Part shown: positions 11,012-40,468 of the stretch, piece by piece
How positions within the stretch are numbered: position 1 is the stretch's first letter
How the letters are laid out: every line of letters begins with the position of its first letter
Virus record (IMG/VR): IMGVR_UViG_3300033273_000550
Span: 102,013 to 166,012 of that record
Strand: one strand, 5' to 3'
DNA from: a virus
DNA: 64,000 nucleotides
Translations under genes and position numbers: made by a program
Notes under the pieces: model-generated
What the model saw: only the letters and a program-made list of their open reading frames with translations
The model's database searches: none
Told to the model about the DNA's origin: nothing

Positions 11012-11866
11012 TTGAAAATAATTTGGGTTTTAGAAAATATAAAAAAGAGCGAAGAATTTTACAGTAAGCTCTATATACTTATTCTTTTAGCGTCAGTAAG
11101 ATTATGGAAGAGATACTATCCTTTCGATAGGTGTGTTTTATACTGTGATCAAATGACGTATAATCTTTTGTTAAACTTACAAGTAGAATGCTTATGGGAT
11201 GAGATTGAACTATTCGAAAGTAGTAGAAATATAAATAAAAAAGTTTTTTGGGCATCTTCTAAACTAGAAGTACTTTCTAAACAAGATGAACCTGTAATTA
11301 TAGTTGATAACGATACTCATATATTTTGTAAAATAAAAGATTATCTTGATCCACAAAAAGTTTATATTCATAACTACGAGGTGGGTAAGGGTTATTATCC
11401 TGGAGTTTTAGATCCATATGTACAAAAACTAGCTAAAAAAAGAAGATGGAAAACTGAGTCTGTAAATGTAAGTTTTTTACAACTACCTGATCCTGCTTTT
11501 ACTAAAAAATATGCAGAAGCTAGTTTAGAAATGATGGAAGAGTTTACATTAATGGATGTCCCTCATTCACAATACTTAATATTTTCCGAACAGCTACTTC
11601 TTAAACATATGTTAGAAGAAGAGCAAATCGATTATCAGAGTATTATATCTACTTACTGGAACTGTACAGAGTGGGAATGGGGGGAAGATCACGATAGAGG
11701 TATTTGGAAAATATACGATTCTGGTAAATACATAAAACATTACGGTCCATTAAAGGGGTGGATACTACAAAGTAAAGCCGATCTGAACTATGATGATGAA
11801 GTAAAACATTTGCTTAATTGCATTAATATTCCTAATTTAAACTTAGACCTGATTAAAAAACCATAA
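11012..11866 (+). CDS. GT-A fold nucleotide-diphospho-sugar transferase-like protein (DUF6734-like)
   Basis: FWASSKL...QDEPVIIVDND with DxD motif; late HYG motif; TTG start. Confidence 0.5.
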   Translation: MKIIWVLENIKKSEEFYSKLYILILLASVRLWKRYYPFDRCVLYCDQMTYNLLLNLQVECLWDEIELFESSRNINKKVFWASSKLEVLSKQDEPVIIVDNDTHIFCKIKDYLDPQKVYIHNYEVGKGYYPGVLDPYVQKLAKKRRWKTESVNVSFLQLPDPAFTKKYAEASLEMMEEFTLMDVPHSQYLIFSEQLLLKHMLEEEQIDYQSIISTYWNCTEWEWGEDHDRGIWKIYDSGKYIKHYGPLKGWILQSKADLNYDDEVKHLLNCINIPNLNLDLIKKP

Positions 11867-12627
11867 TGGGAGTTATAGATAAAGAATTTGTAAGACAGTT
11901 TCTAACTAATAATCCTAGATTAGTGGAAAATAAAAAAGGAGAGAAAGTAAAGGTTTTCGATCCCGTTAGGTACCGCTGGACTCATGGTGCTACTGATTAC
12001 CATTTAGGTGACGGTATGTTAATTTATTCGATTATTCAGTTAATGAGATATAAAACCTGTGTTTGTTTAGGTTCAGGAGCAGGATTTATCCCTCGTATAA
12101 TGACCCAGGCTAGATTAGATTTACACGATCAAGGTATATTCTCAGGAGATAAAGATTACAATCACGGTGATATCGGGGAGACATACTTAGTAGATGCTGC
12201 TAATGGCATAGGAGGAAAAATAGACTACTCAGATAATGATAGCTTTTTTAGATATCAATTTGTGCCTAGATTCATTAAAGATACTACTGAGAATGCTTTT
12301 TATAATTATTTTGTTAAGAAAGATATAAAAATTGATTTTCTACATATTGATGCAGGTCATTCTTATGAAGATGTTAAAAAAGATTTTGAACTTTACTCTA
12401 CATTAGTAAAACCGAATGGAATGATATCAATTCACGATACAGATGAGAAGTATCAAGCAGAGCTTATAATCACTGAAGATGAAAAAGAATACTACGAATT
12501 ATTTGATGGACCTCCTAAATTTATAAAAGAAATAGGTTCCGAATGGAAACAATTTAATTTTTTCAATACAGGAATAGAGAAATCAAAACCTGCATCAACA
12601 GGATTAACATTATTACAACGTGTCTAA
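11866..12627 (+). CDS. Class I SAM-dependent methyltransferase (Methyltransf_24-like)
   Basis: CLGSGAG motif I; IDFLHIDAGHSYEDVKKDF...VKPNGMISIHDT. Confidence 0.85.
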   Translation: MGVIDKEFVRQFLTNNPRLVENKKGEKVKVFDPVRYRWTHGATDYHLGDGMLIYSIIQLMRYKTCVCLGSGAGFIPRIMTQARLDLHDQGIFSGDKDYNHGDIGETYLVDAANGIGGKIDYSDNDSFFRYQFVPRFIKDTTENAFYNYFVKKDIKIDFLHIDAGHSYEDVKKDFELYSTLVKPNGMISIHDTDEKYQAELIITEDEKEYYELFDGPPKFIKEIGSEWKQFNFFNTGIEKSKPASTGLTLLQRV

Positions 12628-13240
12628 AATTCTTATAATTACTATTGGGCGAACAGGAAGCACAAACCTTAGTAAAGGATTAGCAGCTAATTTGAATTTG
12701 AAGCTTTTTGACGAACCATTTAATCCGAGTTTAAATAAGTATTCTCATGACTTTAATTTAAAAAAACTTAAAACTAAAAAAAGTCTTATAGTAAAGCATA
12801 TATGGTTTCATACTCCTGTTGAATATAATTATAAAAACTTCTTACAGGAATTTATTACTTATTTTGATAAAATATTTATGTTAGTTCGAAGTAATATAAA
12901 AGAACATTATGAGAGCCTAGTTAACCTGAAATACAGAACAAATACTAAGGTTAATGTTTTTGAAAAGTACAACTACAATGATATACCTTCTAAGTTTAAA
13001 GAAGACTATAAGAATATACTTACTATAGAAAAGCTTAGCAGTTATGTAGAATACCTACATAATTTTTCTATCGATAATAACATACCTATCCTATATTATG
13101 AAAAACTATACTCAGAAGACATTCATAGTAACGTAGATTACATAAGAAAATTTATACCAGAAATATCAGAGAATATTAATACCTATTTAAATCCTGTTAA
13201 TAGACAAAGGTTTGATACGACTTCATTTACGTTAATATGA
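12620..13240 (+). CDS. Sulfotransferase-like protein
   Basis: N-terminal ITIGRTGST PAPS-binding loop followed by EPFN; late ILYYEKL. Confidence 0.7.
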   Translation: MSKILIITIGRTGSTNLSKGLAANLNLKLFDEPFNPSLNKYSHDFNLKKLKTKKSLIVKHIWFHTPVEYNYKNFLQEFITYFDKIFMLVRSNIKEHYESLVNLKYRTNTKVNVFEKYNYNDIPSKFKEDYKNILTIEKLSSYVEYLHNFSIDNNIPILYYEKLYSEDIHSNVDYIRKFIPEISENINTYLNPVNRQRFDTTSFTLI

Positions 13241-13767
13241 ATATAGAGATAATACATAATATACTTTCAGAAAAAACTTTAACTCTAGTAAATAAGAATT
13301 TGGAGTATATTAGAAAAGGGACTTCTTCTTTTTTTAATAGTAAGGACGTATGGCATAAAGAAATAATAGAATTTAGTAAAGAAGTTTTTATACACATATT
13401 ACCTAAAACCTCAAAAGAATTTGATAGTATAAATAAGGATTTATTGAAGTTAAACTTAAATCGACCCCCTAAAGTTATAATGTACTATTTTTGGCAACCC
13501 GGTTCTTATATACCTTGGCATACTGATAAGATATATAGCAACACATTAACTATATACATTAATAAAGAGTGGGACTACTCATGGGGAGGTCTATTCCAAT
13601 ACTATACAAATAAAGAGATTAAAACTATTATTCCTGGATATAACATAGGATTGCTACAATCTGGTGATTTGAAACACTCTACCACAGTAACTACATCCAC
13701 CAGCCCTGTACGAATTTCAATTCAAATATTTTTTGATGATAAAGTTATTAAACGGCAATTAGTATAA
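13237..13767 (+). CDS. 2OG-Fe(II) oxygenase (prolyl-hydroxylase-like)
   Basis: IPWHTD (HxD), WDYSWGGLF, distal H (KHST) and RISIQ. Confidence 0.85.
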   Translation: MNIEIIHNILSEKTLTLVNKNLEYIRKGTSSFFNSKDVWHKEIIEFSKEVFIHILPKTSKEFDSINKDLLKLNLNRPPKVIMYYFWQPGSYIPWHTDKIYSNTLTIYINKEWDYSWGGLFQYYTNKEIKTIIPGYNIGLLQSGDLKHSTTVTTSTSPVRISIQIFFDDKVIKRQLV

Positions 13768-14291
13768 TGAACATACAAAAGACATTTATATTACCTACTG
13801 CGGACTGTGAAGGTCTAATAAAATTAGCAGAATCAACTGGGTTTTCAAAAAGTACGATAGAAGGTTCATATCGAGAGATAAGCTCAAAAGGTATAAGAAA
13901 GTCTTTAGAGAGCACAATAAGAGTAGATGATTATATAAAATCTATTATAGATAAAGCCTTACCAGACACAAAAGTTATAAGATACCCAGAATACTGCAAA
14001 ATAATAAAATACTCTATTGGGGATTACTTTAAAAAGCATAATGATAATGAAGGAATAAACGATAGGTATAAAACTTTACTTATACAGTTATCTGGTAAAA
14101 AAAAGTACACCGGAGCTGATGTTTTAATTTACAAAAAAGATTCATATATTAAAGTAGATAAAACCCAAGGTTCAGGAATACTTTTTGATTCTTTTTTAAC
14201 TCATGAGGTTACACCTCTAACTAAAGGACATAGATATGTTTTTGTTCTCTGGTTCACTTACGACAATTTATATATAAGAAATACGATATAA
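13767..14291 (+). CDS. 2OG-Fe(II) oxygenase (PKHD-like)
   Basis: FKKHND, LFDSFLTHEVTPLTKGHRYVFVLW. Confidence 0.85.
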   Translation: MNIQKTFILPTADCEGLIKLAESTGFSKSTIEGSYREISSKGIRKSLESTIRVDDYIKSIIDKALPDTKVIRYPEYCKIIKYSIGDYFKKHNDNEGINDRYKTLLIQLSGKKKYTGADVLIYKKDSYIKVDKTQGSGILFDSFLTHEVTPLTKGHRYVFVLWFTYDNLYIRNTI

Positions 14292-15127
14292 TGTTAAACC
14301 TAGTTACAGTTGTTGGGAGAAATACTCATATACTACCTCATATGCTAAAACACTATGAAGGTAAAGTAGAAAAACATTATGTAGTTGTCTACAGACAAAG
14401 TGATGATGACGGTATACTTGAAGAAATAGAAGAGTTAGGTATTACTCCATTTAAAGTAGTAACTGAACCTAAGTTCCACTGGGAAAAAGTAACAGATCTA
14501 TATAACGAAGTAAGAGTAACAAAACCTAATGACTGGTGGGTAATATCCGACGACGACGAATTACAGGTATACCCTACAGATATAGACTATCTTATAAGAC
14601 AGTGTGAATATTATGGGTATGATTTTATTACTGGTGGGTTTATAGATAGAATAGGTAAAGGTGGTACTTTTCCAAAAGTGAAGAGAGACACAGATATACA
14701 CAAAGAGTTTCCTCTTGCTGGTTTTTTTCGATTTCCAATGTCTGGTGCGTGTCCTAATAAAGTAACTTTAGCAAAAGGACATCAAAAAATAACACCTGGT
14801 CAACACTATGCTCTTTTTTCTGATGGAAACAGTTGGGGAACTTCTCACCCTAAGCGTTATCCTATAGAAGAATGCTTTACTCAGGTACATCACTTTAAAT
14901 GGGATGAAAGTTGCATCAAGAGAATAAAAGAAGTAGCAGATAATAAAAAAGAATACTCCTTTTCTAATGAATATTTGAAAATGTATAACGCTATAAAGGA
15001 TAGCAATTGGAAAATAGATATAGAGAATAAACTATATCTAGTTGAATCTTTAAAGGAATTTTCTTATATTGATTATTATGACTATTCTAAATGGAATATA
15101 TTAACTCGTAAAATTGTAAAAATTTAA
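14291..15127 (+). CDS. Glycosyltransferase family 2-like protein
   Basis: LPHMLKHY...WWVISDDDEL (DxD), HHFKW. Confidence 0.75.
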   Translation: MLNLVTVVGRNTHILPHMLKHYEGKVEKHYVVVYRQSDDDGILEEIEELGITPFKVVTEPKFHWEKVTDLYNEVRVTKPNDWWVISDDDELQVYPTDIDYLIRQCEYYGYDFITGGFIDRIGKGGTFPKVKRDTDIHKEFPLAGFFRFPMSGACPNKVTLAKGHQKITPGQHYALFSDGNSWGTSHPKRYPIEECFTQVHHFKWDESCIKRIKEVADNKKEYSFSNEYLKMYNAIKDSNWKIDIENKLYLVESLKEFSYIDYYDYSKWNILTRKIVKI

Positions 15128-15129
15128 TT

Positions 15130-15315
15130 ATGGCACAAAACAAGAAAACTGACGCTGAACTTCTTCAAGAAAGAAATACTAAAGCTCTAGAGAAAATAGC
15201 TGCCTCTGTGGATGCTATCGCTTATTGGTTAGAAGATATCGATAAACAAGAATGGAGTGAAAGATTACAATGGTATCTAGCTGAGTTCTTAAAGAATGCA
15301 CAAGAGAATAAATAA
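15130..15315 (+). CDS. Small helical hypothetical protein
   Basis: 61 aa ORF, 2-nt gaps to neighbours. Confidence 0.6.
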   Translation: MAQNKKTDAELLQERNTKALEKIAASVDAIAYWLEDIDKQEWSERLQWYLAEFLKNAQENK

Positions 15316-15317
15316 TT

Positions 15318-16706
15318 GTGGAAAAACTAGCGATAATTGTCCCTTATCGTAATCGTTATGACCAATTAGAAAAATTTACCGAATATATTACTAGGTATTT
15401 AGATAATAGAAAATTTAAGTACTATATTATCGTAGTAGAGCAAGACGATGCTAAAGAGTTTAACAGAGGTAAATTACTTAATATAGGTTATACAGAAGCA
15501 AAAAAGAAAGCTTGTGATTACTTAGTTTTTCACGATGTAGACATGCTTCCTATAGACGTTGACTATTCTTATGTCAACCGTCCTACACATTTAATATCTG
15601 AAGATTTACCTTTTCCTGAATACTTTGGAGGAGTAACATTATTTCCTATAGAGGATTTTGAAAAAATAAATGGATTTTCTAATAATTATTGGGGATGGGG
15701 TTTTGAAGATGATGATATACGTTACAGATGTATGCTAGAAAATGTAGGACTAAGAACTTTTAGCTTACAAAACAAATTTGTTACTTCAAGAGGACTCAAA
15801 CTTAATGGTGAAAATGCTTATGTGAGTACTAGAAATCTTTTAAAGTCAAATAGAGATTTTAGCTTTTTCATTGAGTTCTACCCTCATGAAGTGATGTATG
15901 ATACCGAAAAAGATTTTGATAAATATTCACTTCTATCTATACCCGGATTTGACTTTAGTATTAATTATACCTCTTTCAACAGATTCCAGGTAGAATTCTT
16001 TAATGAAGATAGAAAATACTATCAGGTATACTCTGATGTTATTAATTTAATTAATTCTAGAGTAGGTATAGGTGTAACTTATATTAGAAAAGATAAAAAA
16101 CTTTTATTTTATATCAACGGTAAAAAAATAGGAGATACAATTCATGAAGGAGAAATATACCCTTACCATAAAGAAAGAGTTATATACCTAGGTTGTAGTA
16201 AAGCTAAAGAACATTTTTTACCTACTACCTATACTACCTTTGCTTATTACGATTGTGCGCTAACTAAAGAGGATTTTGCTAGCATAAATAATAACCGTGA
16301 GATAAGTCTATTAGAAAATTTTGAAAACTATAATAATTGCGGTAACTTAAAAACCTATTTTGATTTTAAGTATCTAAAAGAATATAAAGCAATAGACTTA
16401 TCCGGGAATGGTAATGAAGGTGAGATAGAAAAAGGAGAACCTATCAATATAAGTAAACTTACTGTAAACAAGCACGGTATTCCTTACAGAAAAACTGGGC
16501 GTGTAAAGAAGCTTCCTCATATAAATAACGGATTCTATGAAGGAAAATGGAAACATCAATCGACCAGATGGAATCAAATTAGATTCAATAACGAGGTAGA
16601 GAAAGGTTATTATAATACCAAACTAGACGGATTATCAAACTTACAATTTAAAACACATTCTAAAAAACAACGAGGTAAAGTTATAACATTAAACGTTGGT
16701 ATATGA
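15318..16706 (+). CDS. GT7 (beta-1,4-galactosyltransferase-like) glycosyltransferase with inserted LamG/ConA-like domain
   Basis: IIVPYRNR, FNRGKLLNIG, FHDVD, YFGGV, NGFSNNYWGWGFEDDD; about 210 aa beta insert (LKLNGENAYV...FYINGKKIG...IYLG...DLSGNGNEG); GT7 C-terminal strand DGLSNL. Confidence 0.85.
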   Translation: MEKLAIIVPYRNRYDQLEKFTEYITRYLDNRKFKYYIIVVEQDDAKEFNRGKLLNIGYTEAKKKACDYLVFHDVDMLPIDVDYSYVNRPTHLISEDLPFPEYFGGVTLFPIEDFEKINGFSNNYWGWGFEDDDIRYRCMLENVGLRTFSLQNKFVTSRGLKLNGENAYVSTRNLLKSNRDFSFFIEFYPHEVMYDTEKDFDKYSLLSIPGFDFSINYTSFNRFQVEFFNEDRKYYQVYSDVINLINSRVGIGVTYIRKDKKLLFYINGKKIGDTIHEGEIYPYHKERVIYLGCSKAKEHFLPTTYTTFAYYDCALTKEDFASINNNREISLLENFENYNNCGNLKTYFDFKYLKEYKAIDLSGNGNEGEIEKGEPINISKLTVNKHGIPYRKTGRVKKLPHINNGFYEGKWKHQSTRWNQIRFNNEVEKGYYNTKLDGLSNLQFKTHSKKQRGKVITLNVGI

Positions 16707-18115
16707 AGTTAGGAGTGTGTGTACCATACAGAAATAGAGAATTGCATTTGAACGAATTCGTTCCAAAGGTAGGTAAGTATCTTAAAAATAGAGGAATAGA
16801 TTTTCAAATGTACTTTTGTCATCAAACAGATGATAAATTATTTAACAGGGGTGCTACAAAAAATATAGCAGCTAAACATGCACTGGAAGAAGGGTGTGAT
16901 TACATTGTATGGCATGATATAGATATGATACCTGAAGAGGGAGGAGGAGCTGATTATTCGTACCCAAAAGATAATCCTAGACATATAGCAACTCAAATAT
17001 CTCAAATGGACTATAAACTTAAGTATCATGAGTATTTCGGAGGTGCAGTTCTATTTACAAAGGAACAAGTAGAAGCTACTAATGGATATTCTAATAACTA
17101 TTGGGATTGGGGAATGGAAGATGATGATTTATTTTGGAGGTGTTATAAGGAAGGATATTTAAACGATTCCTATTTATTATCAAAGCCGTTAAAGCAAAAG
17201 TATATGTCTTTTGATGGTGAAGGTTCTTACATAAAAATACCTTCTGATAGAAGAACAAAAAGGTTAACTGGTAGTTCTCACACAGTATCTATTTTATGCA
17301 GAGCTTTCCAACAACCAGAAAAACATAACATATACTTAATAGGAGATGAAAAAACTAGATACATAGAGTATCCAATATTTAGAATACCAGGATACGACTA
17401 TGGAATATCTTTTAATAACTCTAGAGCATTAACCTTACAGTTTTGGAATATGTTCTATAAACACAATTATATGTGGGTAAAACGTTACGATAATCACTGG
17501 TCATGGATAACCGCAGTTATAGATGATTCTAATAAAATATCTCATTTTTACTTAAACGGAACAGAAGTAGATTCTAAAGGTGGTTATGGAAGTCCCTCAC
17601 CACTAGAATACTCAGGTAGACTACTTAAATATAAAGAAAGTGATATGTATTTAGGTATGTCTAAAAACGAACCAGAAGATGCTCCTAATAAATATTTTAA
17701 AGGAGATATAGCAAGGGTATATGCATGGGATAGAGCTTTAGATCCTTCTGAGGTCGAAAACTTACATAGAGAAATACCTACTGATATGGTAGTTAATTTA
17801 AATTTTAATAATCCTAGAACTAAATTTAAAAATAATAAGTGCCAGGAAAAAGAAGAGGATATACTAATTCCCAATTCTATTTTACCTCATAGAGTTGAAG
17901 GTAGAATGAGATGTCTTCCTCATAAAGACGAAGGTATAGTAGACGGAAAATTTGCTAAAGGAGAAACTACTGCTAAAAATGAAAGAAGGTATGTACTTCA
18001 AATGCAACAAGGTAAAATTAACCATAAAGAAGATGGTATAAAACAAGTAAAATATGAGTTTGTGAAAGAAACTAAACTTACACCTTGGGCTAAAATGATA
18101 GATATAAAATTATGA
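16703..18115 (+). CDS. Second GT7 glycosyltransferase with inserted LamG/ConA-like domain
   Basis: VCVPYRNR, FNRG, WHDID, YFGGA, NGYSNNYWDWGMEDDD; insert FDGEGSYI...WSWITAV..HFYLNG..MYLG..FKGDIARVYAWDRAL; DGIKQVKY tail. Confidence 0.85.
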   Translation: MKLGVCVPYRNRELHLNEFVPKVGKYLKNRGIDFQMYFCHQTDDKLFNRGATKNIAAKHALEEGCDYIVWHDIDMIPEEGGGADYSYPKDNPRHIATQISQMDYKLKYHEYFGGAVLFTKEQVEATNGYSNNYWDWGMEDDDLFWRCYKEGYLNDSYLLSKPLKQKYMSFDGEGSYIKIPSDRRTKRLTGSSHTVSILCRAFQQPEKHNIYLIGDEKTRYIEYPIFRIPGYDYGISFNNSRALTLQFWNMFYKHNYMWVKRYDNHWSWITAVIDDSNKISHFYLNGTEVDSKGGYGSPSPLEYSGRLLKYKESDMYLGMSKNEPEDAPNKYFKGDIARVYAWDRALDPSEVENLHREIPTDMVVNLNFNNPRTKFKNNKCQEKEEDILIPNSILPHRVEGRMRCLPHKDEGIVDGKFAKGETTAKNERRYVLQMQQGKINHKEDGIKQVKYEFVKETKLTPWAKMIDIKL

Positions 18116-32210: not shown

Positions 32211-32214
32211 TTTA

Positions 32215-33141: not shown

Positions 33142-34016
33142 AACGAATTAAAATAGATAATATTAACAATAAGGTACTAGTAGCAGCAGGATGCTCACAC
33201 ACAGCTGGTTGTGCATTTTACAAAAACCCTAAATTTAGAGTAAATTCACAAGGAGTATACGAAGATGTTATAGAGTGGGCTTCTGAAGAACTAGCAGATT
33301 TATATAAAGTACCTTGTTCTTTAAAATTAGTTGATGAAAAACTAAGTTGGCATGGTAAATTAAAAGACCTACTTAATTTTGATACTAATATTAACTTAGG
33401 TTTCGGAGGAGCAGGTTATGAAGCTTGTAGTACTGCTTTAAAGCACTACATATTTAAAAAAAGTACATTAGATAACCACCTTATTATACTTCAGCTACCT
33501 TCTCCAAGCAGGGTAATGATACCTGATACACAGAATGAAAAGTATAATATAAACTTAACTAGCGACTATATAAACGACCCGGACAGATCTTACGCAGAGA
33601 ATAGTCTTCTACAAAACTTTTTTGAACCAGGTTTTTATGAAGTAAAGTTTTTACAGGATATACTTTATTTACAGGATTATATTGAAACTAAGGGGGGGAA
33701 TTTTCGTATAATTACTGACTTTTTATACCCTTCTTTTCTTACCGGTAAATTTTTAAATAAACATAAGGTAGAATTCGAAACATTCTTCAGAAGAGGTAGT
33801 TATAAACCTTTTTATAACTTTGATATAAACTTTATTTTAGATAAATTGAATACTATAGCAATACCGGCTACCGAAAGTTATAAAACATTAGCTAGTCAAG
33901 GTTTAGTATTTGATGATAATCACTTATCTGAAGACGGTAACGCTCAATTAGCTAATCTCATTTATAAGAATTTAGAGAATTATTCTAAATTTAAATTAAG
34001 TACAACAGTTATATAA
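33138..34016 (+). CDS. SGNH hydrolase-fold protein
   Basis: AAGCSHTAG, NLG.GGAG, DDNHLS..GN. Confidence 0.7.
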   Translation: MKRIKIDNINNKVLVAAGCSHTAGCAFYKNPKFRVNSQGVYEDVIEWASEELADLYKVPCSLKLVDEKLSWHGKLKDLLNFDTNINLGFGGAGYEACSTALKHYIFKKSTLDNHLIILQLPSPSRVMIPDTQNEKYNINLTSDYINDPDRSYAENSLLQNFFEPGFYEVKFLQDILYLQDYIETKGGNFRIITDFLYPSFLTGKFLNKHKVEFETFFRRGSYKPFYNFDINFILDKLNTIAIPATESYKTLASQGLVFDDNHLSEDGNAQLANLIYKNLENYSKFKLSTTVI

Positions 34017-35047
34017 TGAAAAAGCACTTAAAAAATATTGTTCGAAAAAGCAACTTACTTGATAAAACAGCATACAAGTATGTTTTAGATCAGAATGAAA
34101 GAAATTTTTTAATGCATAAAGGTAAATGGCAAGATTTTATTAATAGTTTAAGACAAGAAGATTTTTTCTTTTATCCTAATTCTAAAAAATTTGTAAGGAA
34201 GTTAGCTAAGCATATTAGAGTTAGAGAATATAATATAATGTTAACACCAGGCTCTGATACAGCTATCAAAACTATCTTTGAAGCATTCGAGTTAAAAGGT
34301 AAGAACATTGTTACTACTAATTACTGTTTTCCAATGTACGATGTTTATGCTGATCTATACGAAGCAAACTTAGTCAAAGCTAGATATAAAAGAGAGAGAT
34401 TTAAAATAAGAAATTTAATAGAAAAAATTAATGAGGATACAGAGTTTATTATTATCGCTAACCCAAACTCTCCTTTAGGTGATCTATATACATTCGATGA
34501 GATTAAAATGTTATTAGACACAGGTAAATACGTTGTTATAGATGAGGCTTATATAGAATTAACAGAAGCAGAATCAGTCACGACACTAATAGACGAATAT
34601 CAAAATCTTATAGTAACAAGAACTTTTTCAAAAGGCTTAGGAGCAGCAGGCTGTAGATTAGGTTATATAGTTAGTTGTCGAGAAAATATGGAAATACTTT
34701 CTAAATTTAGAATGATGTATGAAGTTAACTCCATAGGTTTACTATACGGAGAATACATCTTAGATAACTACCCAGAATATCTTCGTTACTTACAAACGAC
34801 TATAAAGCAGAAAAAATTATTAGTAAGTCAGCTACAAAATATGCATTATAATATTGTAGACACGGACTGTACTTGGTTTTTTATTGAAAAAACCGAAAGA
34901 TTAGAACAAATATTTAGAGACCATTGGGTTAGTTATAGAACCTTAACCCTACCGGGTAGGAGAAGTTCTGAATGGATTAAGTTTAATTACGATTTAGCAC
35001 TTAGAAATACTTATTTTATTAACGATTTATTAAATGAAGTACGTTAG
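34016..35047 (+). CDS. PLP-dependent class I/II enzyme (HisC/CobD-like aminotransferase or decarboxylase)
   Basis: LDQNE, YP, PGSD.AI, NPNSPLG, DEAY, RTFSK.LG.AG.RLGY. Confidence 0.9.
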   Translation: MKKHLKNIVRKSNLLDKTAYKYVLDQNERNFLMHKGKWQDFINSLRQEDFFFYPNSKKFVRKLAKHIRVREYNIMLTPGSDTAIKTIFEAFELKGKNIVTTNYCFPMYDVYADLYEANLVKARYKRERFKIRNLIEKINEDTEFIIIANPNSPLGDLYTFDEIKMLLDTGKYVVIDEAYIELTEAESVTTLIDEYQNLIVTRTFSKGLGAAGCRLGYIVSCRENMEILSKFRMMYEVNSIGLLYGEYILDNYPEYLRYLQTTIKQKKLLVSQLQNMHYNIVDTDCTWFFIEKTERLEQIFRDHWVSYRTLTLPGRRSSEWIKFNYDLALRNTYFINDLLNEVR

Positions 35048-36353
35048 TAGATTTGATAGAAGCCTAATCGAAGGAGTTTTTAAAGAATCGTATGTATATT
35101 CGATCAAAGAACTTCCTTTAAACCTAGCTTATTTCCAAGATAGTAGACAAAATATACGTTGGGAGTATACCTACGGTAGTATAGGTCTTGTAAATAAAAT
35201 AAATGATTTTTATAGAGTCGAGACGAGATTATTAGAGCTTATAACTTCTGGTGATTCACCTTCTAGTTTAAGACAGAGACTCAATATAGTTAATACTTTA
35301 TTACTTTGTAACTTAGATACTGACGTTCCTGTACATACCTCAATAAGTCCTGAACATAATTTACAAGGAGAAGTAGACCTTAAGGATATAAAACCAGGTG
35401 ACATTTATTTTATAGCTCATCCTGGACATACTAGAGTAGAAGGTTCAATCTTTCTTAATATACCTTTAAAAAATAGTCTACTTTACATTAATAAAAAACA
35501 TAATTTAACTCTTAAACAAAATAACAATGTTCAAAGAGTTCATACAATCGGAAAATTATTAGAGAGCTTTAATAGCAGATTTACAGATAAGGATAAAAAA
35601 TACTGGTATAGTTTTAGCAGAAACAAACCCCTCGATCCTACAGTACGCAATAGATTAAAAACTCATGATAAGACAGATGTAAGAATTCTTAAGCTCGGTA
35701 GGATATTAGAAAGAGGGAGTAAAATTAAAAGATCCTCTCACCCTTCTGCTCAATACCTAAAAGAGACATATAAATCTTTTAATAATTTCTGCAATCAGTT
35801 ATTTACTAATAATATTAAAATTTATACTCAAAGTATAGGTAATGTTAGGCATAAATTTTTTGAAAATAGCAATTCTATATTGGAGGATAAATTAAAGTTA
35901 AAACTTAACACTAATCAGAGTGTTTATAACCTGATTAATAATAAAGTTAATTACATAGATCTACCTGCAAGGAATGAAGCAGAGAGATTTGATTTTGATA
36001 CTAAATATGAAAAACTAATACATAGCGAACTTACTAATGTACTTAGTAAAGCTCCTAGTAAAGATCATAAAATGTTTACAAATAATAGTTTTAAGTATAT
36101 TCAAACTAAAGAAACTAATATAGAAGATTTGGTAAGACTAAATAACTATAAAGGTTTTATTATATTTGTAGATAGTGATCAAATTAACTATATTAATAGA
36201 GCATTAGAGGAATTGTTATTCTGTATACCTTATGAGGTAAGCTTATCTCGTACAGAAAATAATGCTATAAAAATTGTAAACTGTGCACACGAGGGATGGA
36301 AGAGTAGTGAACTTAGAAAAGAAGTAGTTATAGATAATAGATTTTTATTATGA
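35034..36353 (+). CDS. Hypothetical protein (possible distant ParB-like HPG.TR motif)
   Basis: 439 aa, operonic; FIAHPGHTR motif. Confidence 0.5.
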   Translation: MKYVSRFDRSLIEGVFKESYVYSIKELPLNLAYFQDSRQNIRWEYTYGSIGLVNKINDFYRVETRLLELITSGDSPSSLRQRLNIVNTLLLCNLDTDVPVHTSISPEHNLQGEVDLKDIKPGDIYFIAHPGHTRVEGSIFLNIPLKNSLLYINKKHNLTLKQNNNVQRVHTIGKLLESFNSRFTDKDKKYWYSFSRNKPLDPTVRNRLKTHDKTDVRILKLGRILERGSKIKRSSHPSAQYLKETYKSFNNFCNQLFTNNIKIYTQSIGNVRHKFFENSNSILEDKLKLKLNTNQSVYNLINNKVNYIDLPARNEAERFDFDTKYEKLIHSELTNVLSKAPSKDHKMFTNNSFKYIQTKETNIEDLVRLNNYKGFIIFVDSDQINYINRALEELLFCIPYEVSLSRTENNAIKIVNCAHEGWKSSELRKEVVIDNRFLL

Positions 36354-37165
36354 AAATAGGGTTTTTAACAAAATACAAACATCTCCCAGAATTTTCTTCT
36401 TTTGTTGAGAGTAAATTTGAATGTATTGACTTACATAAAGGAATAGTCGAAGTAGATTATATTTTCTCAGCTCCTAATTATACCTTAAGTGAAGTTGATG
36501 ATAGTTTAGTTGAGAATACAAAATGTAAAGCTGTTATTACCCCTTCTACAGGTACTAATCATATTAAAACAAATCTTGTACCTATTATTAGCATTAAAAA
36601 TGATAAGATATTAGAAAGTATAACCTCTACTGCAGAACATAACTTACTTTTAATATTAAGGCTTGCTAGAGAGATAGAACCATATAGACAGTTAAGTTCC
36701 TTAAACTTAGGAATATTAGGGTATGGAAGATTAGGTAAAATACTTCATCGTATTGCTACTCCTATTTTTAAAAATATATACACAGCCGATAAAGAATATC
36801 AAGATAAAGATTTCTATTCTAAAACAGACATACTCAGTATTAATATAGATCTAACTGAAGATAATTATGATTTTATTAATAAGAGTTATGTAGAGAAATT
36901 TAGTAAAAATATCTATATTGTTAATACAGCAAGAGGAGAAGTAGTAAACGAAGAAGAAATAAGTATTCTTACTTACGATGGTAAGGTATTAGGATATGGA
37001 ACTGATGTTATAAAAGAAGAGTTTAATTCTACTGCTACGACTATGAAAAGTTATTATAATCCCAAGATTATAGTAACAAGACATATAGGGGGTACTGCTA
37101 TCGAAGCTCAAGAAACTGCTTATAGACATTTAATTAATAAAGTACTTAATGAAAATAATATCTGA
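36350..37165 (+). CDS. D-isomer-specific 2-hydroxyacid dehydrogenase (SerA-like)
   Basis: STGTNHI, TAEH, GILGYGRLG, NTARGEVV, TDV, HIGG. Confidence 0.9.
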   Translation: MKIGFLTKYKHLPEFSSFVESKFECIDLHKGIVEVDYIFSAPNYTLSEVDDSLVENTKCKAVITPSTGTNHIKTNLVPIISIKNDKILESITSTAEHNLLLILRLAREIEPYRQLSSLNLGILGYGRLGKILHRIATPIFKNIYTADKEYQDKDFYSKTDILSINIDLTEDNYDFINKSYVEKFSKNIYIVNTARGEVVNEEEISILTYDGKVLGYGTDVIKEEFNSTATTMKSYYNPKIIVTRHIGGTAIEAQETAYRHLINKVLNENNI

Positions 37166-37979
37166 ACTTTGTCAAAACCATAACGGTAATCTAGATGTAC
37201 TAGATAATATGATTAAAATGGCGGCTGTTGGTAGCGATATAGTTAAAATACAGTCTATAAAAGCATCTACTTTTACTTACAGAGAAGAATATGAGAGCTT
37301 TAGACCTTATGAACCAGAATTTTTACGACTAAAAGGATTAGAACTCAGTAAAGAAGATGAGGAGTTTTTTATTTTTAAATGTTTAGAGTATGGAGTAGAA
37401 TCTATGACAACCGTTTTTGTTCCTCAACATGCTAGCTATTTTAATAACTTAGGTTATGACAATTTGAAACTATCCGGATATTCCATACCAGCTTTTGACT
37501 ATGGTAAAAAATTAAAAAACTTTAAATTTAAAAGATTATTTTTCTCTACTTCTAGTCTTACATTAGAAGAAATAAAAGAAACTGTAAAGAATCTAGATGA
37601 AATGAATATAGAGTACTATATGATGCAATGTACCTGTATTTATCCAACACCGTTAGAAAAACTTAATCTACAGAATATAGAATTCTATAGAAAGTTAGGA
37701 ATAAAAAACGTAGGTTTAAGTGATCACTCTAATCCTCATCAAGATGGTTTACTTTCTTCTAAGTTAGCAATATTTCAAGGAATTGATGTACTGGAAAGAC
37801 ATTTTACTATTTTAGACATTGAAGATACTAGAGACGGTAAAGTTTCAATTACTCCTAAGATGTTATCAGAACTAAAAAGGTTCAGTAGAATGTCCAAAGA
37901 AGATCAGTATAGAGAGTTAAATGAGTTTACAGAAACTCAAATTTTTAATCACGACTACTATAGAGGTAGGTTTAAATGA
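37149..37979 (+). CDS. neuB: N-acetylneuraminate synthase family (NeuB-like ulosonate synthase), no C-terminal SAF domain
   Basis: ISELCQNHNG, VKIQ, QC...YPT, GLSDHS, LERHFT, D..VS.TP. Confidence 0.9.
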   Translation: MKIISELCQNHNGNLDVLDNMIKMAAVGSDIVKIQSIKASTFTYREEYESFRPYEPEFLRLKGLELSKEDEEFFIFKCLEYGVESMTTVFVPQHASYFNNLGYDNLKLSGYSIPAFDYGKKLKNFKFKRLFFSTSSLTLEEIKETVKNLDEMNIEYYMMQCTCIYPTPLEKLNLQNIEFYRKLGIKNVGLSDHSNPHQDGLLSSKLAIFQGIDVLERHFTILDIEDTRDGKVSITPKMLSELKRFSRMSKEDQYRELNEFTETQIFNHDYYRGRFK

Positions 37980-37992
37980 TTAAAGTGAGTAC

Positions 37993-38000
37993 TATTTATA
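37993..38000 (+). promoter_or_regulatory. TATTTATA putative late promoter element
   Basis: Exact motif 17 nt upstream of ATG 38018, inside the glyco cluster. Confidence 0.55.
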
Positions 38001-38017
38001 ATAAATGGTAATAAGTT

Positions 38018-39382
38018 ATGAAACCAGTAAATTTTATTATATTTGACTTAGATGGAGTCTTAATAGAAACCAAAGACTTACATTTTGAGGCTTTAAACAA
38101 GGCACTTGGTGAATATGCAATAGATATGTCTGAACATCTTGCTATTTACGACGGTTTAACCACTTCACAGAAACTCAAAGTACTATCAGAAAAAAAAGGA
38201 CTACCAATCGAATTACATAAGGAAATTTGGAAAAAAAAGCAGTTGATAACTTTTGAAATGCTTAGAAGTATTAAACCTGATAAAAGACTACAGAATATAA
38301 TGTCGGAGTTAGTTAAAAAAGGTTATAAGTTAGGATTATGTACTAACTCTATACGTAAAACTGCTATTACAGTATTATCTAAATTAGGAGTAGCAGAATA
38401 TATGGATTTAATTCTGTCTGGAGAAGATGTAACTAACCCAAAACCTCATCCTGAAATATACTGGAAGGCTATATCTAAAATGAGCGTACTTCCGGAAGAG
38501 ACTTTGATAGTAGAAGATTCTCCATTCGGTTTATTAGCTGCATCTAGAAGTAAATCTAATATACTTAGAGTAAATAAACCTAAAGATGTTACATTAGAGA
38601 ATATAGAAAAGAAGTTAAAAGAAATACAGACTGGTATGAAACAACCAACACCAGCTTGGAGAGATGAAAACCTTACTGTGCTTATTCCAATGGCAGGAGC
38701 AGGAAGTAGATTCCAACAGGCAGGTTATACTTTTCCTAAACCTCTCATCGATGTAAAAGGAAAACCAATGATTCAAGTAGTAGTAGATAATTTAAATATA
38801 AAAGCTACATATGTTTACGTTGTACAGAAAGAACATAGACAAAAGTACAATTTAGATACCCTTCTTAATTTAATTACTCCTGGCTGTAAAATAGTAGAAG
38901 TAGACGGCATAACAGAAGGAGCTGCTTGTACAGCACTACTTGCTAAAGAGTATATCGATAATGATAATGCTTTATTCTTTGCTAATTCAGACCAGTATGT
39001 AGACTGGGATAGTAATGAGTTTTTATATAAGATGAATGAAACTGAAGCTGATGGCGGTATTGTAACATTTAAAGCTACTCACCCTAAGTGGTCTTTTGCT
39101 AAAGTAAACAAAGAAGGAATAGTAACTGAAGTTGCAGAAAAGAATCCTATATCAGATATCGCAACTGTAGGATTTTACTATTGGAAAAAAGGTTCTGATT
39201 TTGTAAAGTATGCAGAGGATATGATTAAAAAAGATATTAGAGTTAATAATGAATTTTACGTATGCCCTGTATTTAATCAAGCTATTGAAGATAATAAGAA
39301 AATTAGAACATTCAATATAAATAAAATGTGGGGATTAGGTACTCCTGAGGATCTTAAATACTACTTAGAAAATTTTAAATGA
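38018..39382 (+). CDS. HAD-IA phosphatase fused to GT2_BcbE-like nucleotidyltransferase (copy 2)
   Basis: FDLDGVL, KPHPEIY, VEDS, then IPMAGAGSRF...KP.IDVKGKPMI...GAACT...NSDQ...LGTPE. Confidence 0.9.
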   Translation: MKPVNFIIFDLDGVLIETKDLHFEALNKALGEYAIDMSEHLAIYDGLTTSQKLKVLSEKKGLPIELHKEIWKKKQLITFEMLRSIKPDKRLQNIMSELVKKGYKLGLCTNSIRKTAITVLSKLGVAEYMDLILSGEDVTNPKPHPEIYWKAISKMSVLPEETLIVEDSPFGLLAASRSKSNILRVNKPKDVTLENIEKKLKEIQTGMKQPTPAWRDENLTVLIPMAGAGSRFQQAGYTFPKPLIDVKGKPMIQVVVDNLNIKATYVYVVQKEHRQKYNLDTLLNLITPGCKIVEVDGITEGAACTALLAKEYIDNDNALFFANSDQYVDWDSNEFLYKMNETEADGGIVTFKATHPKWSFAKVNKEGIVTEVAEKNPISDIATVGFYYWKKGSDFVKYAEDMIKKDIRVNNEFYVCPVFNQAIEDNKKIRTFNINKMWGLGTPEDLKYYLENFK

Positions 39383-39822
39383 AACTAATAGCTCACAGAG
39401 GTAACATAACTGGCCCTAAACCTGAATTAGAAAACTCTCCTGATTATATTTTTGAAGCTATCAAAAAAGGTTTTGATGTAGAGATAGATGTTTGGTACAG
39501 TACAGACGGTAAGTTTATGCTAGGTCACGATAATCCTGATTATAAATTTCCTTTTGAGCTTTTAGAAAATTGGTACAGTAGATTATGGATACACTGTAAA
39601 AATTATTTAGCTTTAGCTAAGTTAGTAGAAATAGATAAAGGAGGTCATAAACTTAACTACTTTTGGCACGAAGAAGATTTTGCTACCCTCACCTCAAAAG
39701 GGTACATATGGAGTATACATCCAATAGATTATGGTATATTAGTTATGCCTGAAAGTTCTAACACAGTTCAAACAACTACTACGAAAGGTATATGTAGTGA
39801 TTTTATAGGAGAGTATGCCTAA
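39379..39822 (+). CDS. Minimal glycerophosphodiester phosphodiesterase/PI-PLC-like protein
   Basis: IAHRG, ENS, DVEIDV, LGHD, WIHCKN. Confidence 0.8.
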   Translation: MKLIAHRGNITGPKPELENSPDYIFEAIKKGFDVEIDVWYSTDGKFMLGHDNPDYKFPFELLENWYSRLWIHCKNYLALAKLVEIDKGGHKLNYFWHEEDFATLTSKGYIWSIHPIDYGILVMPESSNTVQTTTTKGICSDFIGEYA

Positions 39823-40468
39823 AGCAATTATCATATCAGGACTCTTAACACATCTTTCAGATAATATTATACCTTTTTTAGATAAAGATACTGACGTATA
39901 CTGTTATACTTGGAATATAGATTGGAACGGTAGATGGATGGTTAAGTTAAATAGGTATAAGAAATACTGTAATGATATAAAAGTAGTTTTAGAAAAACCT
40001 AAATTCGAAAAAAAACTACATTCATATTTTTACTCTACGTATAAAACTGTTAATATGATTGATGATATTGACAAGTATGACCGTATTATTAAGTTTAAAC
40101 CTAATGTAGAAGGAGATATAAATTATGTAGGAGACTTAGACTACTATTTTTTAAAAGCTAAATTACAATCCAGACCTTTGCTTTCTAATACTAATAAAGA
40201 GGAATGTATCTTCGGTACAGTTCATTATCAATCAATGGATGAGCGAATGTTTACTACTTATCCGTTGGCTTTAAAGAAATTATTTCATATCTTGGAAGAA
40301 GAGTTTATTCCTACTATGCTAAGTATAGATGCTTTTTGCAGTATGAAGTATGGTGAAAATTACGAAGGTAGTTTATTTTGGAAGGAATGGGTTGATAACA
40401 AACAAGTAAAGTTAATACAAGATATTGATTTAAGAATCCCTAATAGTAAATCATATGCCAATTCATAG
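39815..40468 (+). CDS. Putative glycosyltransferase-like protein (related to 22848)
   Basis: AIIISG...DVYCYTW...YDRIIKFKP. Confidence 0.45.
   Translation: MPKAIIISGLLTHLSDNIIPFLDKDTDVYCYTWNIDWNGRWMVKLNRYKKYCNDIKVVLEKPKFEKKLHSYFYSTYKTVNMIDDIDKYDRIIKFKPNVEGDINYVGDLDYYFLKAKLQSRPLLSNTNKEECIFGTVHYQSMDERMFTTYPLALKKLFHILEEEFIPTMLSIDAFCSMKYGENYEGSLFWKEWVDNKQVKLIQDIDLRIPNSKSYANS

What the first reader, a model, noticed from the sequence alone, without database searches (positions are those of the whole stretch)
11012..40468. About 29 kb late-expressed phage glycan synthesis and tailoring operon between fibre and tail genes (candidate virion glycosylation system)
Seen: about 37 same-strand genes, nearly all overlapping or within a few nt, placed between the fibre cluster and the sheath gene. 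They include about 8 glycosyltransferase-like proteins plus sugar activation (NeuA, two BcbE-type NTases, UDP-sugar DH) and tailoring enzymes (methyl, sulfo, SGNH acyl, 2OG oxygenase, radical SAM). No hairpin terminator was seen between the fibre operon starting at 8263 and the cluster, and one internal TATTTATA precedes 38018. No Wzx/Wzy/ABC export or undecaprenyl-priming gene is present. Inference: this is a cytoplasmic, lipid-carrier-independent pathway that decorates the Ser/Thr-rich fibres or capsid, comparable to giant-virus fibril glycosylation. I know of no characterised bacteriophage system of this scale. Host surface or DNA modification remain alternatives.
Basis: partly seen in the sequence, partly recalled or inferred. 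Interest (0 to 1): 0.88.

Follow-up and report, generated by a model that had tools for sequence, protein, structure and literature searches.

The report
Phage sugar-decoration gene island beside tail fibres
An uncultured relative of a Flavobacterium phage carries a 30-kb block of soluble sugar-making and sugar-transferring enzymes between its tail-fibre and tail-sheath genes; similar islands are already described in marine phages, but whether they coat the virus particle or the host surface has never been tested.

Summary
Positions 11012-40718 carry 37 tightly packed ORFs between fibre gene 8294 and sheath gene 40831. They form a ~30-kb insertion relative to the cultured Flavobacterium phage immuto. 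Six glycosyltransferases are supported and one more is only a candidate. Also present are two sugar-1-P nucleotidyltransferases, a NeuB-like synthase with a CMP-transferase, three radical SAM enzymes, three 2OG oxygenases, a methyltransferase and an SGNH-like protein. No sulfotransferase was found. No product has a membrane-spanning segment.

New here: the 5' part (methyltransferase, GT2, two GT7 enzymes with an inserted LamG-like domain, N-twitch radical SAM) is a strictly collinear cassette. It occurs in more than 130 uncultured viral contigs, almost always just downstream of a large fibre-like gene, and in no cultured phage searched.

A late-type motif (TATTTATA) precedes the fibre, sheath and tube genes and ORF 38018. 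No terminator above chance intervenes.

The target is unresolved: virion (fibre) glycosylation about 0.45, host-envelope remodelling (the published reading of such islands) about 0.3. 5hmC/5hmU-type DNA glycosylation is unlikely, because no ThyA/ThyX was found and a QueC gene lies elsewhere.

First-stage readers of this scan noted similar operons in other genomes; none had been followed up.

The parts
8263..8271 (+). late-type promoter-like motif TATTTATAA, 31 nt upstream of fibre gene 8294; the last such motif before the cluster
   Evidence: It is the most enriched intergenic 8-mer of the genome: 23 of 44 copies lie in the 3.9% of the DNA that is intergenic.
8294..9970 (+). tail fibre with a C-terminal intramolecular chaperone (Peptidase_S74); S+T 25%
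9983..10993 (+). two small ORFs, a 183-aa acidic protein and a 152-aa protein with S+T 29%; they travel with the cassette and are absent from immuto; candidate fibre accessory or acceptor proteins
   Evidence: no Pfam or PHROG hit
11012..11866 (+). DUF6734 protein, probable GT8-like GT-A glycosyltransferase
   Evidence: Pfam E 9e-14; invariant D99-x-D101 in 25 homologues; nearest predicted structures are GT8/Nucleotid_trans, TM 0.61-0.64
11866..12627 (+). SAM methyltransferase (Methyltransf_24); first gene of the widely conserved core
12620..14291 (+). unknown 206-aa ORF plus two prolyl-hydroxylase-type 2OG-Fe(II) oxygenases; an insertion into the core that has no counterpart in the other loci
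14291..15127 (+). GT2-like GT-A glycosyltransferase (Glyco_tranf_2_4, just below the Pfam cut-off); conserved in 130 loci
15130..15315 (+). 61-aa ORF that fills the only apparent gap
   Evidence: no family hit
15318..18115 (+). two paralogous GT7 (beta-1,4-galactosyltransferase-type) enzymes, each with a LamG/ConA-like domain inserted before the C-terminal His segment
   Evidence: (beta4GalT1, E 2e-46)
18112..19554 (+). radical SAM enzyme with an N-terminal twitch domain (NCBIfam NF033640, 336 bits against a cut-off of 170); tandemly amplified up to about 6 copies in related loci
19554..20339 (+). free-standing homologue of the LamG-like insert
   Evidence: hhalign probability 98.5%, E 2e-15 against the insert region
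20341..21081 (+). DUF6071 protein, SGNH/GDSL-like by motifs (GDS...H)
21074..22414 (+). GT-B fold glycosyltransferase of a virus-only family
   Evidence: AF2 pLDDT 89.5; Foldseek finds trehalose-6-P synthases and SdgB with probability 1.0; Atlas
22848..23627 (+). GT-A fold glycosyltransferase, GT6-like
   Evidence: AF2 pLDDT 92; Foldseek finds BoGT6a and alpha3GalT with probability 1.0
24410..25363 (+). candidate GT-B glycosyltransferase, unconfirmed
   Evidence: weak Glyco_trans_1_3 hit, E 0.03; N-terminal NGxGH loop; no Pfam or PDB support
25360..26121 (+). truncated nucleotide-sugar dehydrogenase (central part only)
26953..27910 (+). CMP-sugar cytidylyltransferase (KdsB/NeuA type) followed by a 99-aa HAD-like phosphatase
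27907..28497 (+). third 2OG-Fe(II) oxygenase
28494..29231 (+). sugar-1-phosphate nucleotidyltransferase, paralogue of the C-terminal half of 38018
29215..33141 (+). two radical SAM/SPASM enzymes (29215, 32215) flanking an SDR fragment (30093) and two unknown ORFs (30568, 31263)
34016..37979 (+). HisC/CobD-like PLP enzyme, an unknown 439-aa ORF, a D-2-hydroxyacid dehydrogenase, and a NeuB-family synthase (276 aa, without the C-terminal domain)
37993..38001 (+). the only intergenic late-type motif inside the cluster, 25 nt upstream of 38018
38018..39382 (+). fusion of a beta-phosphoglucomutase-like HAD domain and a sugar-1-P nucleotidyltransferase
39379..40718 (+). three unknown ORFs; 39815 and 40455 recur just before the sheath gene in related loci
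40796..42582 (+). late-type motif and tail sheath gene (3' boundary)

Best explanation
The cluster is a late-expressed, fully cytoplasmic glycosylation island of an immuto-like myophage that infects Flavobacteriia. It has two parts.

1. A conserved core: a GT8-like DUF6734 protein, a methyltransferase, a GT2, two GT7 enzymes with an inserted LamG-like recognition domain, and an N-twitch radical SAM enzyme.
2. A variable supply-and-tailoring part. It activates hexose-1-phosphates through HAD/beta-PGM-like and nucleotidyltransferase proteins. It makes a CMP-activated 2-keto-3-deoxy (ulosonic) acid through a NeuB-like synthase, a HAD phosphatase and a cytidylyltransferase. It modifies sugars or acceptor residues through SPASM radical SAM enzymes, 2OG oxygenases, an SGNH-like protein, a PLP enzyme and a 2-hydroxyacid dehydrogenase.

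The transferases then build the glycan directly on an acceptor in the cytoplasm, without a lipid carrier. The most likely acceptors are the fibre proteins, or the small Ser/Thr-rich protein 10535, encoded immediately upstream, modified before or during virion assembly.

Shown here: gene content, solubility, position, conserved synteny, the promoter-like motif and the lack of terminators. Inferred: late co-transcription, the sugar identities and, above all, the acceptor.
For: 1. Content. Six supported glycosyltransferases plus nucleotide-sugar enzymes are present.

2. Solubility. No product has a TM-like segment, and there is no flippase, polymerase or priming transferase.

3. Position. The block is a ~30-kb insertion exactly between fibre and sheath, where immuto has five small genes in about 2.4 kb.

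4. Synteny.
- The core is strictly collinear in more than 130 viral loci.
- In two divergent groups of loci it directly follows a 600-1400-aa fibre-like ORF.
- In 28 of the fetched loci a sheath homologue lies downstream of the cassette.
- ORFs 9983 and 10535 co-occur with the cassette and are absent from immuto.

5. Transcription signals.
- TATTTATA sits 20-40 nt upstream of fibre, sheath, tube, hub and tape-measure-region genes.
- It occurs once inside the cluster, at 37993.
- The genome's other recurrent promoter-like motif does not occur in the cluster.
- No terminators above chance occur before 43127.

6. Recognition module. The GT7 enzymes keep their catalytic motifs, and their LamG-like insert diverges much faster than the catalytic part (47% against 75% identity). 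This is as expected for an acceptor-recognition module.

7. The 2OG oxygenases are of the prolyl-hydroxylase type (PF13640), a family made mostly of protein hydroxylases (established knowledge).

8. DNA modification is accounted for elsewhere. The genome has QueC, and immuto replaces all G by a 7-deazaguanine derivative (PMC10516641).

9. Precedent. Mycobacteriophage virions are glycosylated by phage-encoded transferases (Freeman 2023, cited in PMC12619734).

10. Weak sign of transcription. Near-identical metatranscriptome pieces fall on cluster genes at the same low depth as on the sheath gene.
Against: - No direct evidence on the acceptor was obtained.
- Fibre Ser/Thr richness is generic: immuto fibres without the cluster have the same composition.
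- Adjacency to fibre genes is equally expected for a hypervariable 'host recognition' island that remodels the host surface, which is the published reading (PMC7029224, PMC7824862).
- Soluble transferases are normal in O-antigen pathways and could use host priming and export.
- The whole genome is on one strand, and read-through over 29 kb is inferred, not observed.
- The motif count in the window is not above chance (15 against 13 expected); only its placement is informative.
- The metatranscriptome pieces may be carried-over DNA.
- No Maf-type or other known protein O-glycosyltransferase family was detected.
Confidence: 0.45

Rival explanations
1. Host-envelope remodelling. The enzymes extend or alter host undecaprenyl-linked O-antigen, capsule or glycoprotein glycans on the cytoplasmic face, and host flippases export the product. 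This changes the cell surface to block superinfection or to stop progeny from re-adsorbing to debris.
For: This is the published interpretation of fibre-adjacent glycosyltransferase and radical SAM islands in pelagi- and cyanomyophages and of cyanophage LPS clusters (PMC7029224, PMC12801897, PMC7824862). Several transferases belong to families common in LPS synthesis: GT8-like, GT2, and a GT6-like enzyme whose closest structure is Bacteroides BoGT6a. DUF6734 relatives occur in Bacteroidota.
Against: There is no membrane protein, priming transferase, flippase, polymerase or Gtr component. Only late-type promoter motifs are present, which leaves little time for surface turnover in a lytic cycle. 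The GT7+LamG architecture appears only in viral or virus-like contigs, and cellular homologues lack the insert. The minimal cassettes in relatives are wedged between fibre and sheath genes.
Confidence: 0.3
2. Synthesis of a free or otherwise non-virion product. This could be a secondary-metabolite-like glycoside, or the enzymes could glycosylate or hydroxylate host or phage non-structural proteins, or manipulate nucleotide-sugar pools. In this reading the cluster is a composite of unrelated modules gathered in a hypervariable spot.
For: Many ORFs remain unknown, and the cluster is modular and variable between relatives. Radical SAM/SPASM, PLP, 2OG and methyltransferase genes are also typical of natural-product clusters. 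A sugar- and amino-acid-derived metabolite cluster has been proposed for jumbo cyanophages (PMC7824862).
Against: No precursor peptide, NRPS/PKS or export gene was seen. The core is dominated by four to five transferases kept in strict order beside fibre genes.
Confidence: 0.15
3. Glycosylation or hypermodification of phage DNA.
For: Phage glycosyltransferases classically modify DNA. Radical SAM, PLP and 2OG enzymes occur in thymidine hypermodification pathways (established knowledge).
Against: The genome has no ThyA-family hydroxymethylase and no ThyX, so the usual hydroxymethyl-pyrimidine attachment point is missing. A QueC gene lies outside the cluster. The cultured relative immuto fully replaces G with fdPreQ1 using genes unrelated to this cluster (PMC10516641), and immuto lacks the cluster altogether.
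Confidence: 0.05

Closest known systems
Host recognition cluster (HRC) of pelagimyophages and cyanomyophages (Zaragoza-Solas et al. 2020, PMC7029224)
   Same: It is a large hypervariable island inside the structural module of a T4-like marine myophage. It combines tail-fibre genes with many glycosyltransferases, nucleotide-sugar genes and gain or loss of radical SAM cassettes. It has not been tested experimentally.
   Different: The phage lineage is different (immuto-like, Flavobacteriia host) and so is the position (fibre-sheath rather than VrlC-gp14). The published islands are described as GT8-rich and read as host O-chain modification. The conserved MTase-GT2-GT7/LamG-N-twitch rSAM core and its all-soluble make-up were not described there.
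Cyanophage LPS / cell-wall synthesis and modification clusters (P-SSM2, S-SCSM1, S-SCSM2R; PMC12801897)
   Same: These are tens of phage-encoded sugar genes: 13 glycosyltransferases and 22 genes in S-SCSM2R, including KdsA/KdsB-type ulosonic acid genes. Their function is only inferred.
   Different: No cultured phage in the searched collection has the GT7+LamG enzyme. The radical SAM enzyme has one distant cultured homologue, in RsoM2USA at 38% identity.
Mycobacteriophage virion glycosylation (Freeman et al. 2023, cited in PMC12619734 and PMC12801897)
   Same: Phage-encoded cytoplasmic glycosyltransferases decorate structural proteins. This is the only experimentally shown bacteriophage precedent for the favoured reading.
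   Different: Those systems use a handful of transferases and host sugar nucleotides, and they modify the capsid and tail-tube C-termini. No homology to them was tested or found here, and the scale here is about ten times larger.
Flagellin-type cytoplasmic O-glycosylation islands with nonulosonic acids (Campylobacter, Helicobacter, Aeromonas; established knowledge)
   Same: It is a lipid-carrier-independent cytoplasmic O-glycosylation of a Ser/Thr-rich surface filament. It uses a NeuB-family synthase, a CMP-transferase and a hypervariable set of tailoring genes.
   Different: No Maf-family transferase, no PseB/PseC or LegB/LegC-type dehydratase or aminotransferase and no NeuC was detected. The NeuB homologue scores far below the equivalog cut-offs.
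Giant-virus fibril and capsid glycosylation (Mimivirus, chloroviruses; established knowledge)
   Same: It is virus-encoded, host-independent sugar-nucleotide synthesis plus soluble transferases that decorate virion surface proteins. Prolyl/lysyl-hydroxylase-type 2OG oxygenases accompany the transferases.
   Different: The hosts are eukaryotic and no orthology was shown. The resemblance is functional only.

Membership tests
Hypervariable fibre-associated glycan island (HRC type) of marine T4-like myophages | Lies inside the virion structural module, next to tail-fibre genes | tested here: met
   Fibres lie at 2-9970, the sheath at 40831 and the MCP upstream at G000 95297-96637
Hypervariable fibre-associated glycan island (HRC type) of marine T4-like myophages | Non-syntenic or variable between related phages | tested here: met
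   It is absent from immuto. The distance from cassette to sheath is 10-15 kb in 17 relatives against 29.8 kb here, and gene content differs
Hypervariable fibre-associated glycan island (HRC type) of marine T4-like myophages | Contains several glycosyltransferases, sugar-nucleotide genes and radical SAM cassettes | tested here: met
Hypervariable fibre-associated glycan island (HRC type) of marine T4-like myophages | Located between VrlC and the neck gene gp14, as in pelagimyophages | tested here: not met
   Here it lies between a fibre gene and the sheath gene. VrlC and gp14 homologues were not searched for.
Phage virion glycosylation system | Glycan covalently bound to virion structural proteins and dependent on phage transferases | not testable with these tools
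   Needs virions, glycan staining and mass spectrometry
Gtr-type serotype-converting O-antigen modification | GtrA flippase, GtrB bactoprenol transferase and an integral-membrane GtrC | tested here: not met
   No Pfam hit of that kind and no TM-like segment in any ORF
Wzx/Wzy- or ABC-dependent polysaccharide gene cluster | Initiating phosphoglycosyl transferase, flippase or ABC exporter, and polymerase | tested here: not met
T-even-type DNA glycosylation | dCMP/dUMP hydroxymethylase (ThyA family) that provides the attachment base | tested here: not met
   No PF00303 or PF02511 match in the 191-kb genome, with positive controls
CMP-nonulosonic acid pathway (Neu/Pse/Leg) | NeuB-family PEP-condensing synthase | tested here: met
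   PF03102, E 7e-32. However, it scores 114 bits against the 400-bit equivalog cut-off and lacks the C-terminal domain
CMP-nonulosonic acid pathway (Neu/Pse/Leg) | CMP-sugar synthetase | tested here: met
   CTP_transf_3, E 4e-10. The best NCBIfam hits are weak KdsB subfamilies
CMP-nonulosonic acid pathway (Neu/Pse/Leg) | Upstream enzymes: NeuC epimerase, or PseB/C or LegB/C dehydratase and DegT aminotransferase | tested here: not met
   None was found by Pfam or NCBIfam. A Kdo/Kdn-like route (synthase, HAD phosphatase, CMP-transferase) fits better, but that is an inference.
GT7 (beta-1,4-galactosyltransferase family) | GT7 N and C Pfam domains, the DxD motif and the WGxEDDD motif | tested here: met
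   Pfam E 1e-15 to 1e-23. Invariant HDxD and WxWGxEDxD motifs. beta4GalT1 and beta4GalT7 hit at E 2e-46 to 2.5e-41. A ~220-aa LamG-like insert is an added feature.
Flagellin-type cytoplasmic O-glycosylation | Maf (motility-associated factor) family transferase | tested here: not met
   No such Pfam family appeared among the hits of any cluster ORF

The most novel reading that the evidence does not exclude
The collinear core cassette is a widespread, phage-specific machine for cytoplasmic protein glycosylation. The core consists of a GT8-like protein, a methyltransferase, a GT2, two lectin-inserted GT7 enzymes and an N-twitch radical SAM enzyme. It builds complex, rapidly diversifying glycans on tail fibres, here including a CMP-activated ulosonic acid. 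If so, many abundant marine and freshwater myophages carry sugar-coated receptor-binding proteins. The 'LPS genes' long annotated in their host-recognition islands would then serve the virion rather than the host surface.
Probability: 0.35. Interest if true: 0.85.

Novelty: new variant of a known kind. Interest (0 to 1): 0.55.

Why it matters
Large sugar-gene islands beside the tail-fibre genes of abundant marine myophages have been annotated as 'LPS genes' since the first cyanophage genomes. They are assumed to alter the host surface, and nobody has tested the target.

This window offers a clean case. It is a 30-kb insertion relative to a cultured phage, and it is made only of soluble proteins. 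It also reveals a compact conserved core of four to six genes, whose GT7+LamG enzyme alone forms about 1,700 protein clusters in metagenomes. That core could be expressed together with its neighbouring fibre gene to settle the question.

If virions are the target, phage receptor-binding proteins of major ocean and lake phages are glycoproteins. That would bear on host range, particle stability, grazing, and how these islands should be annotated. If the host is the target, the core defines a new soluble route of phage-driven surface conversion.

Tried and rejected
Searches that gave nothing useful:
- Profile searches of three unknown families against PDB sequences gave nothing usable.
- PHROGs gave almost no annotation for 19 unknown ORFs. 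Pfam at E up to 5 gave only noise for most.
- The ESM Atlas gave no lead for 35034, whose stored model is poor.
- Megablast of 24 kb of the cluster against cultured phages found no match. tblastn of GT7+LamG against cultured phages found no match.

Claims not supported:
Only their weak paralogy was seen.
- 24410 could not be confirmed as a glycosyltransferase.

Arguments rejected:
- Ser/Thr richness of the fibres as evidence for glycosylation was rejected after the immuto control.
- Co-orientation as evidence for an operon was rejected, because the whole genome is on one strand.
- The raw count of TATTTATA was rejected as evidence because it is not above chance. Only its placement is used.

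Inconclusive:
- The metatranscriptome look-up gave only a few short contigs, and DNA carry-over cannot be excluded.

Full report
**What the window is.** The window is positions 102013-166012 of a 191,416-bp IMG/VR virus record rated complete. Its tail sheath and tube genes are 79% identical in DNA to Flavobacterium phage vB_FspM_immuto, a 160-kb genome. The window also encodes a T4-type sheath, tube and baseplate hub, and the genome has a gp23-type capsid gene upstream. All but 3 of 233 ORFs lie on one strand. The phage is therefore an uncultured immuto-like myophage, presumably of Flavobacteriia. DNA runs from algae-associated and aquatic metagenomes hold parts of it.

**Checking the observation.** From 11012 to 40718 there are 37 + strand ORFs. 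The only apparent gap holds a 61-aa ORF at 15130-15315. Of the 38 junctions between 10535 and 40455, 31 overlap and 5 have gaps of 0-4 nt. G+C drops to 0.28-0.33 inside the cluster, against 0.35-0.38 in the flanking structural genes.

Pfam and NCBIfam confirm these enzymes:
- A Methyltransf_24 methyltransferase (11866).
- Three prolyl-hydroxylase-type 2OG oxygenases (13237, 13767, 27907), with HxD...H intact.
- A GT2-like enzyme (14291).
- Two GT7 enzymes with a LamG_3 domain (15318, 16703).
- A radical SAM enzyme of the N-terminal-twitch family NF033640 (18112; 336 bits against a cut-off of 170).
- Two radical SAM/SPASM enzymes (29215, 32215).
- A truncated nucleotide-sugar dehydrogenase (25360).
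- A KdsB/NeuA-type cytidylyltransferase (26953).
- Two paralogous sugar-1-P nucleotidyltransferases (28494 and the C-terminal half of 38018). The second is fused to a beta-phosphoglucomutase-like HAD domain.
- A HisC/CobD-like PLP enzyme (34016).
- A D-2-hydroxyacid dehydrogenase (36350).
- A NeuB-family synthase (37149) that scores far below the equivalog cut-offs and lacks the C-terminal domain.

Sixteen ORFs had no Pfam hit. I built alignments from homologues in related loci to study some of them.
- AlphaFold models of two were confident (pLDDT 89.5 and 92).
- 21074 has a GT-B fold. Its top Foldseek hits are trehalose-6-P synthases and the protein O-GlcNAc transferase SdgB.
- 22848 has a GT6-like GT-A fold, closest to Bacteroides BoGT6a and alpha3GalT.
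- DUF6734 (11012) has an invariant DxD and GT8-like structural neighbours.
- The DUF6071 family (20341) carries GDS...H motifs of SGNH hydrolases.
- 19554 is a free-standing copy of the LamG-like insert (hhalign probability 98.5%).
- 24410 remains an unconfirmed transferase candidate.

No sulfotransferase was found. No ORF has a TM-like segment.

**Synteny and distribution (new here).** In immuto only five small genes, about 2.4 kb, separate the last fibre gene from the sheath gene. The cluster is thus a ~30-kb insertion at a syntenic point. This matches the 31-kb difference in genome size.

Searching IMG/VR with the GT7+LamG and radical SAM proteins returned 62 and more than 530 viral stretches. 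A tblastn of all window proteins against the 141 fetched viral loci gave these results:
- The order methyltransferase, GT2, GT7+LamG, GT7+LamG, N-twitch radical SAM is strictly conserved in 122-140 of them.
- The radical SAM gene is often amplified in tandem, up to about six copies.
- The cassette is often followed by the GT-B enzyme 21074.
- In 28 loci a tail sheath homologue lies downstream of the cassette.

In both a closer group and a more divergent group of loci, the cassette directly follows a 600-1400-aa ORF with fibre-like composition. In the closer group it also follows homologues of 9983, 10535 and DUF6734, which immuto lacks.

The GT7+LamG protein family has 1,699 clusters at 90% identity in metagenomes, all unnamed. 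It has no match in 50,697 cultured phage records. In prokaryote genomes the full architecture occurs only in ten MAG contigs that look like binned phage DNA. Cellular homologues have the GT7 part alone.

The family profile matches beta4GalT1 and beta4GalT7 at E 2e-46 to 2.5e-41 over the catalytic N-part. The LamG-like insert diverges much faster than the catalytic part, 47% against 75% identity.

**Expression signals.** TATTTATA is the most enriched intergenic 8-mer of the genome. Of its 44 copies, 23 lie in the 3.9% of the DNA that is intergenic. In the window it sits 20-40 nt upstream of 3525, fibre 8294, 38018, the sheath, the tube, the hub, 44565 and 46991.

The total count in the window is not above chance, so only placement is informative. 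Inside the cluster the single intergenic copy is at 37993. A second recurrent promoter-like motif (GTTG...TATATTTAAG), found in other parts of the genome, does not occur in the cluster. Terminator-like hairpins on the + strand are not above chance until the strong ones after the tube gene at 43127 and 43461.

Late co-transcription with fibre gene 8294 is therefore plausible but inferred. A few near-identical metatranscriptome contigs fall on cluster genes at the same low depth as on the sheath gene. This is weak support, and DNA carry-over is not excluded.

**What it does.** Fairly secure: the cluster makes activated sugars and transfers them in the cytoplasm without its own lipid-carrier or export machinery.

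The acceptor is not shown. I favour virion proteins, meaning the upstream fibres or the co-occurring Ser/Thr-rich protein 10535, at about 0.45. The reasons are:
- the conserved fibre-cassette-sheath arrangement;
- the exclusively late-type signals;
- the virus-specific, fast-evolving lectin-like insert in the GT7 enzymes;
- the protein-hydroxylase-type oxygenases;
- the experimental precedent in mycobacteriophages (Freeman 2023, cited in PMC12619734).

Against this, Ser/Thr richness is generic, since immuto fibres have the same composition. Adjacency to fibres is also what a host-recognition island would show.

The published reading of comparable islands is remodelling of the host O-antigen or capsule to block superinfection (PMC7029224; PMC12801897; PMC7824862). 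It remains a serious rival at about 0.3, because soluble transferases could use host priming and export.

DNA glycosylation is unlikely. The genome has no ThyA/ThyX-family enzyme. It has QueC, and immuto replaces all G by fdPreQ1 using unrelated genes (PMC10516641).

The ulosonic-acid branch lacks NeuC and the Pse/Leg enzymes. It looks more like a Kdo/Kdn-type route of synthase, HAD phosphatase and CMP-transferase, which is an inference.

**Comparison and novelty.** The closest known thing is the 'host recognition cluster' of pelagi- and cyanomyophages. That is a hypervariable island in the structural module with fibres, glycosyltransferases and radical SAM cassettes (PMC7029224). The kind is therefore known, and of similar or larger size, but none has been characterised.

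What differs here:
- the phage lineage and the exact position;
- the fully soluble make-up;
- the compact collinear core with lectin-inserted GT7 enzymes and an N-twitch radical SAM enzyme. I found no description of this core in the searchable literature.

First-stage readers of this scan noted similar operons in several other genomes. Those notes were unchecked, and I treated them as leads only.

**Verdict.** The finding is a new variant of a known kind, of moderate to high interest because a small conserved core now makes the long-open question of the target directly testable.

Noticed in passing
G000:C1:169647-170378 (just beyond the window's 3' end): A QueC homologue (E 2e-38). This implies a 7-deazaguanine DNA modification pathway like that of phage immuto (fdPreQ1). 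The Pfam TGT model did not find a DpdA.
   Followed up: partly
genome positions 8401, 32115, 34084, 35317, 44105, 187749 of G000 (outside the window): A second recurrent promoter-like element, GTTG-N6-CTGA-N(~12)-TATATTTAAG, lies upstream of genes in other regions of the genome. It looks like an early/middle promoter class distinct from TATTTATA.
   Followed up: no
window 25360-26121: The nucleotide-sugar dehydrogenase covers only profile positions 64-283 of 413. It has no N-terminal Rossmann start and no C-terminal domain, yet homologues of similar extent occur in 15 related loci. It may be a conserved truncated form rather than a pseudogene.
   Followed up: partly
window 26114-26956 and 31263-32210: Two unknown ORFs are weak paralogues (phmmer E 5e-8).
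   Followed up: partly
window 3525-9970: Four fibre-like ORFs (3525, 4751, 6525, 8294) share sequence modules (phmmer E 1e-23 to 1e-49). Only 8294 ends in a Peptidase_S74 intramolecular chaperone. The 5'-open ORF 2-2785 has a cadherin-like domain.
   Followed up: partly
window 43127-43148 and 43461-43489: These are the first strong intrinsic-terminator-like hairpins downstream of the cluster, directly after the tail tube gene. They bracket a 450-nt spacer before the baseplate hub gene.
   Followed up: no
loci L145-L154 (MAG contigs labelled Pelagibacterales, Flavobacteriaceae, Gammaproteobacteria, Spirochaetaceae and others): Full-length GT7+LamG genes occur in 'bacterial' MAG contigs, some of 196-248 kb. 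These are probably phage genomes binned into MAGs. L047 is likewise labelled as a giant-virus MAG but carries the phage cassette.
   Followed up: no
related loci, e.g. L014, L027-L029, L139, L143: The N-twitch radical SAM gene is amplified in tandem to 5-6 copies in some relatives, while the window has one. The GT6-like gene 22848 is amplified 3-4 times in others (L095, L102, L119).
   Followed up: partly
window 12001-40000: G+C is 0.28-0.33 inside the cluster against 0.35-0.38 in the flanking structural genes. This is consistent with a separate origin or a different constraint.
   Followed up: no
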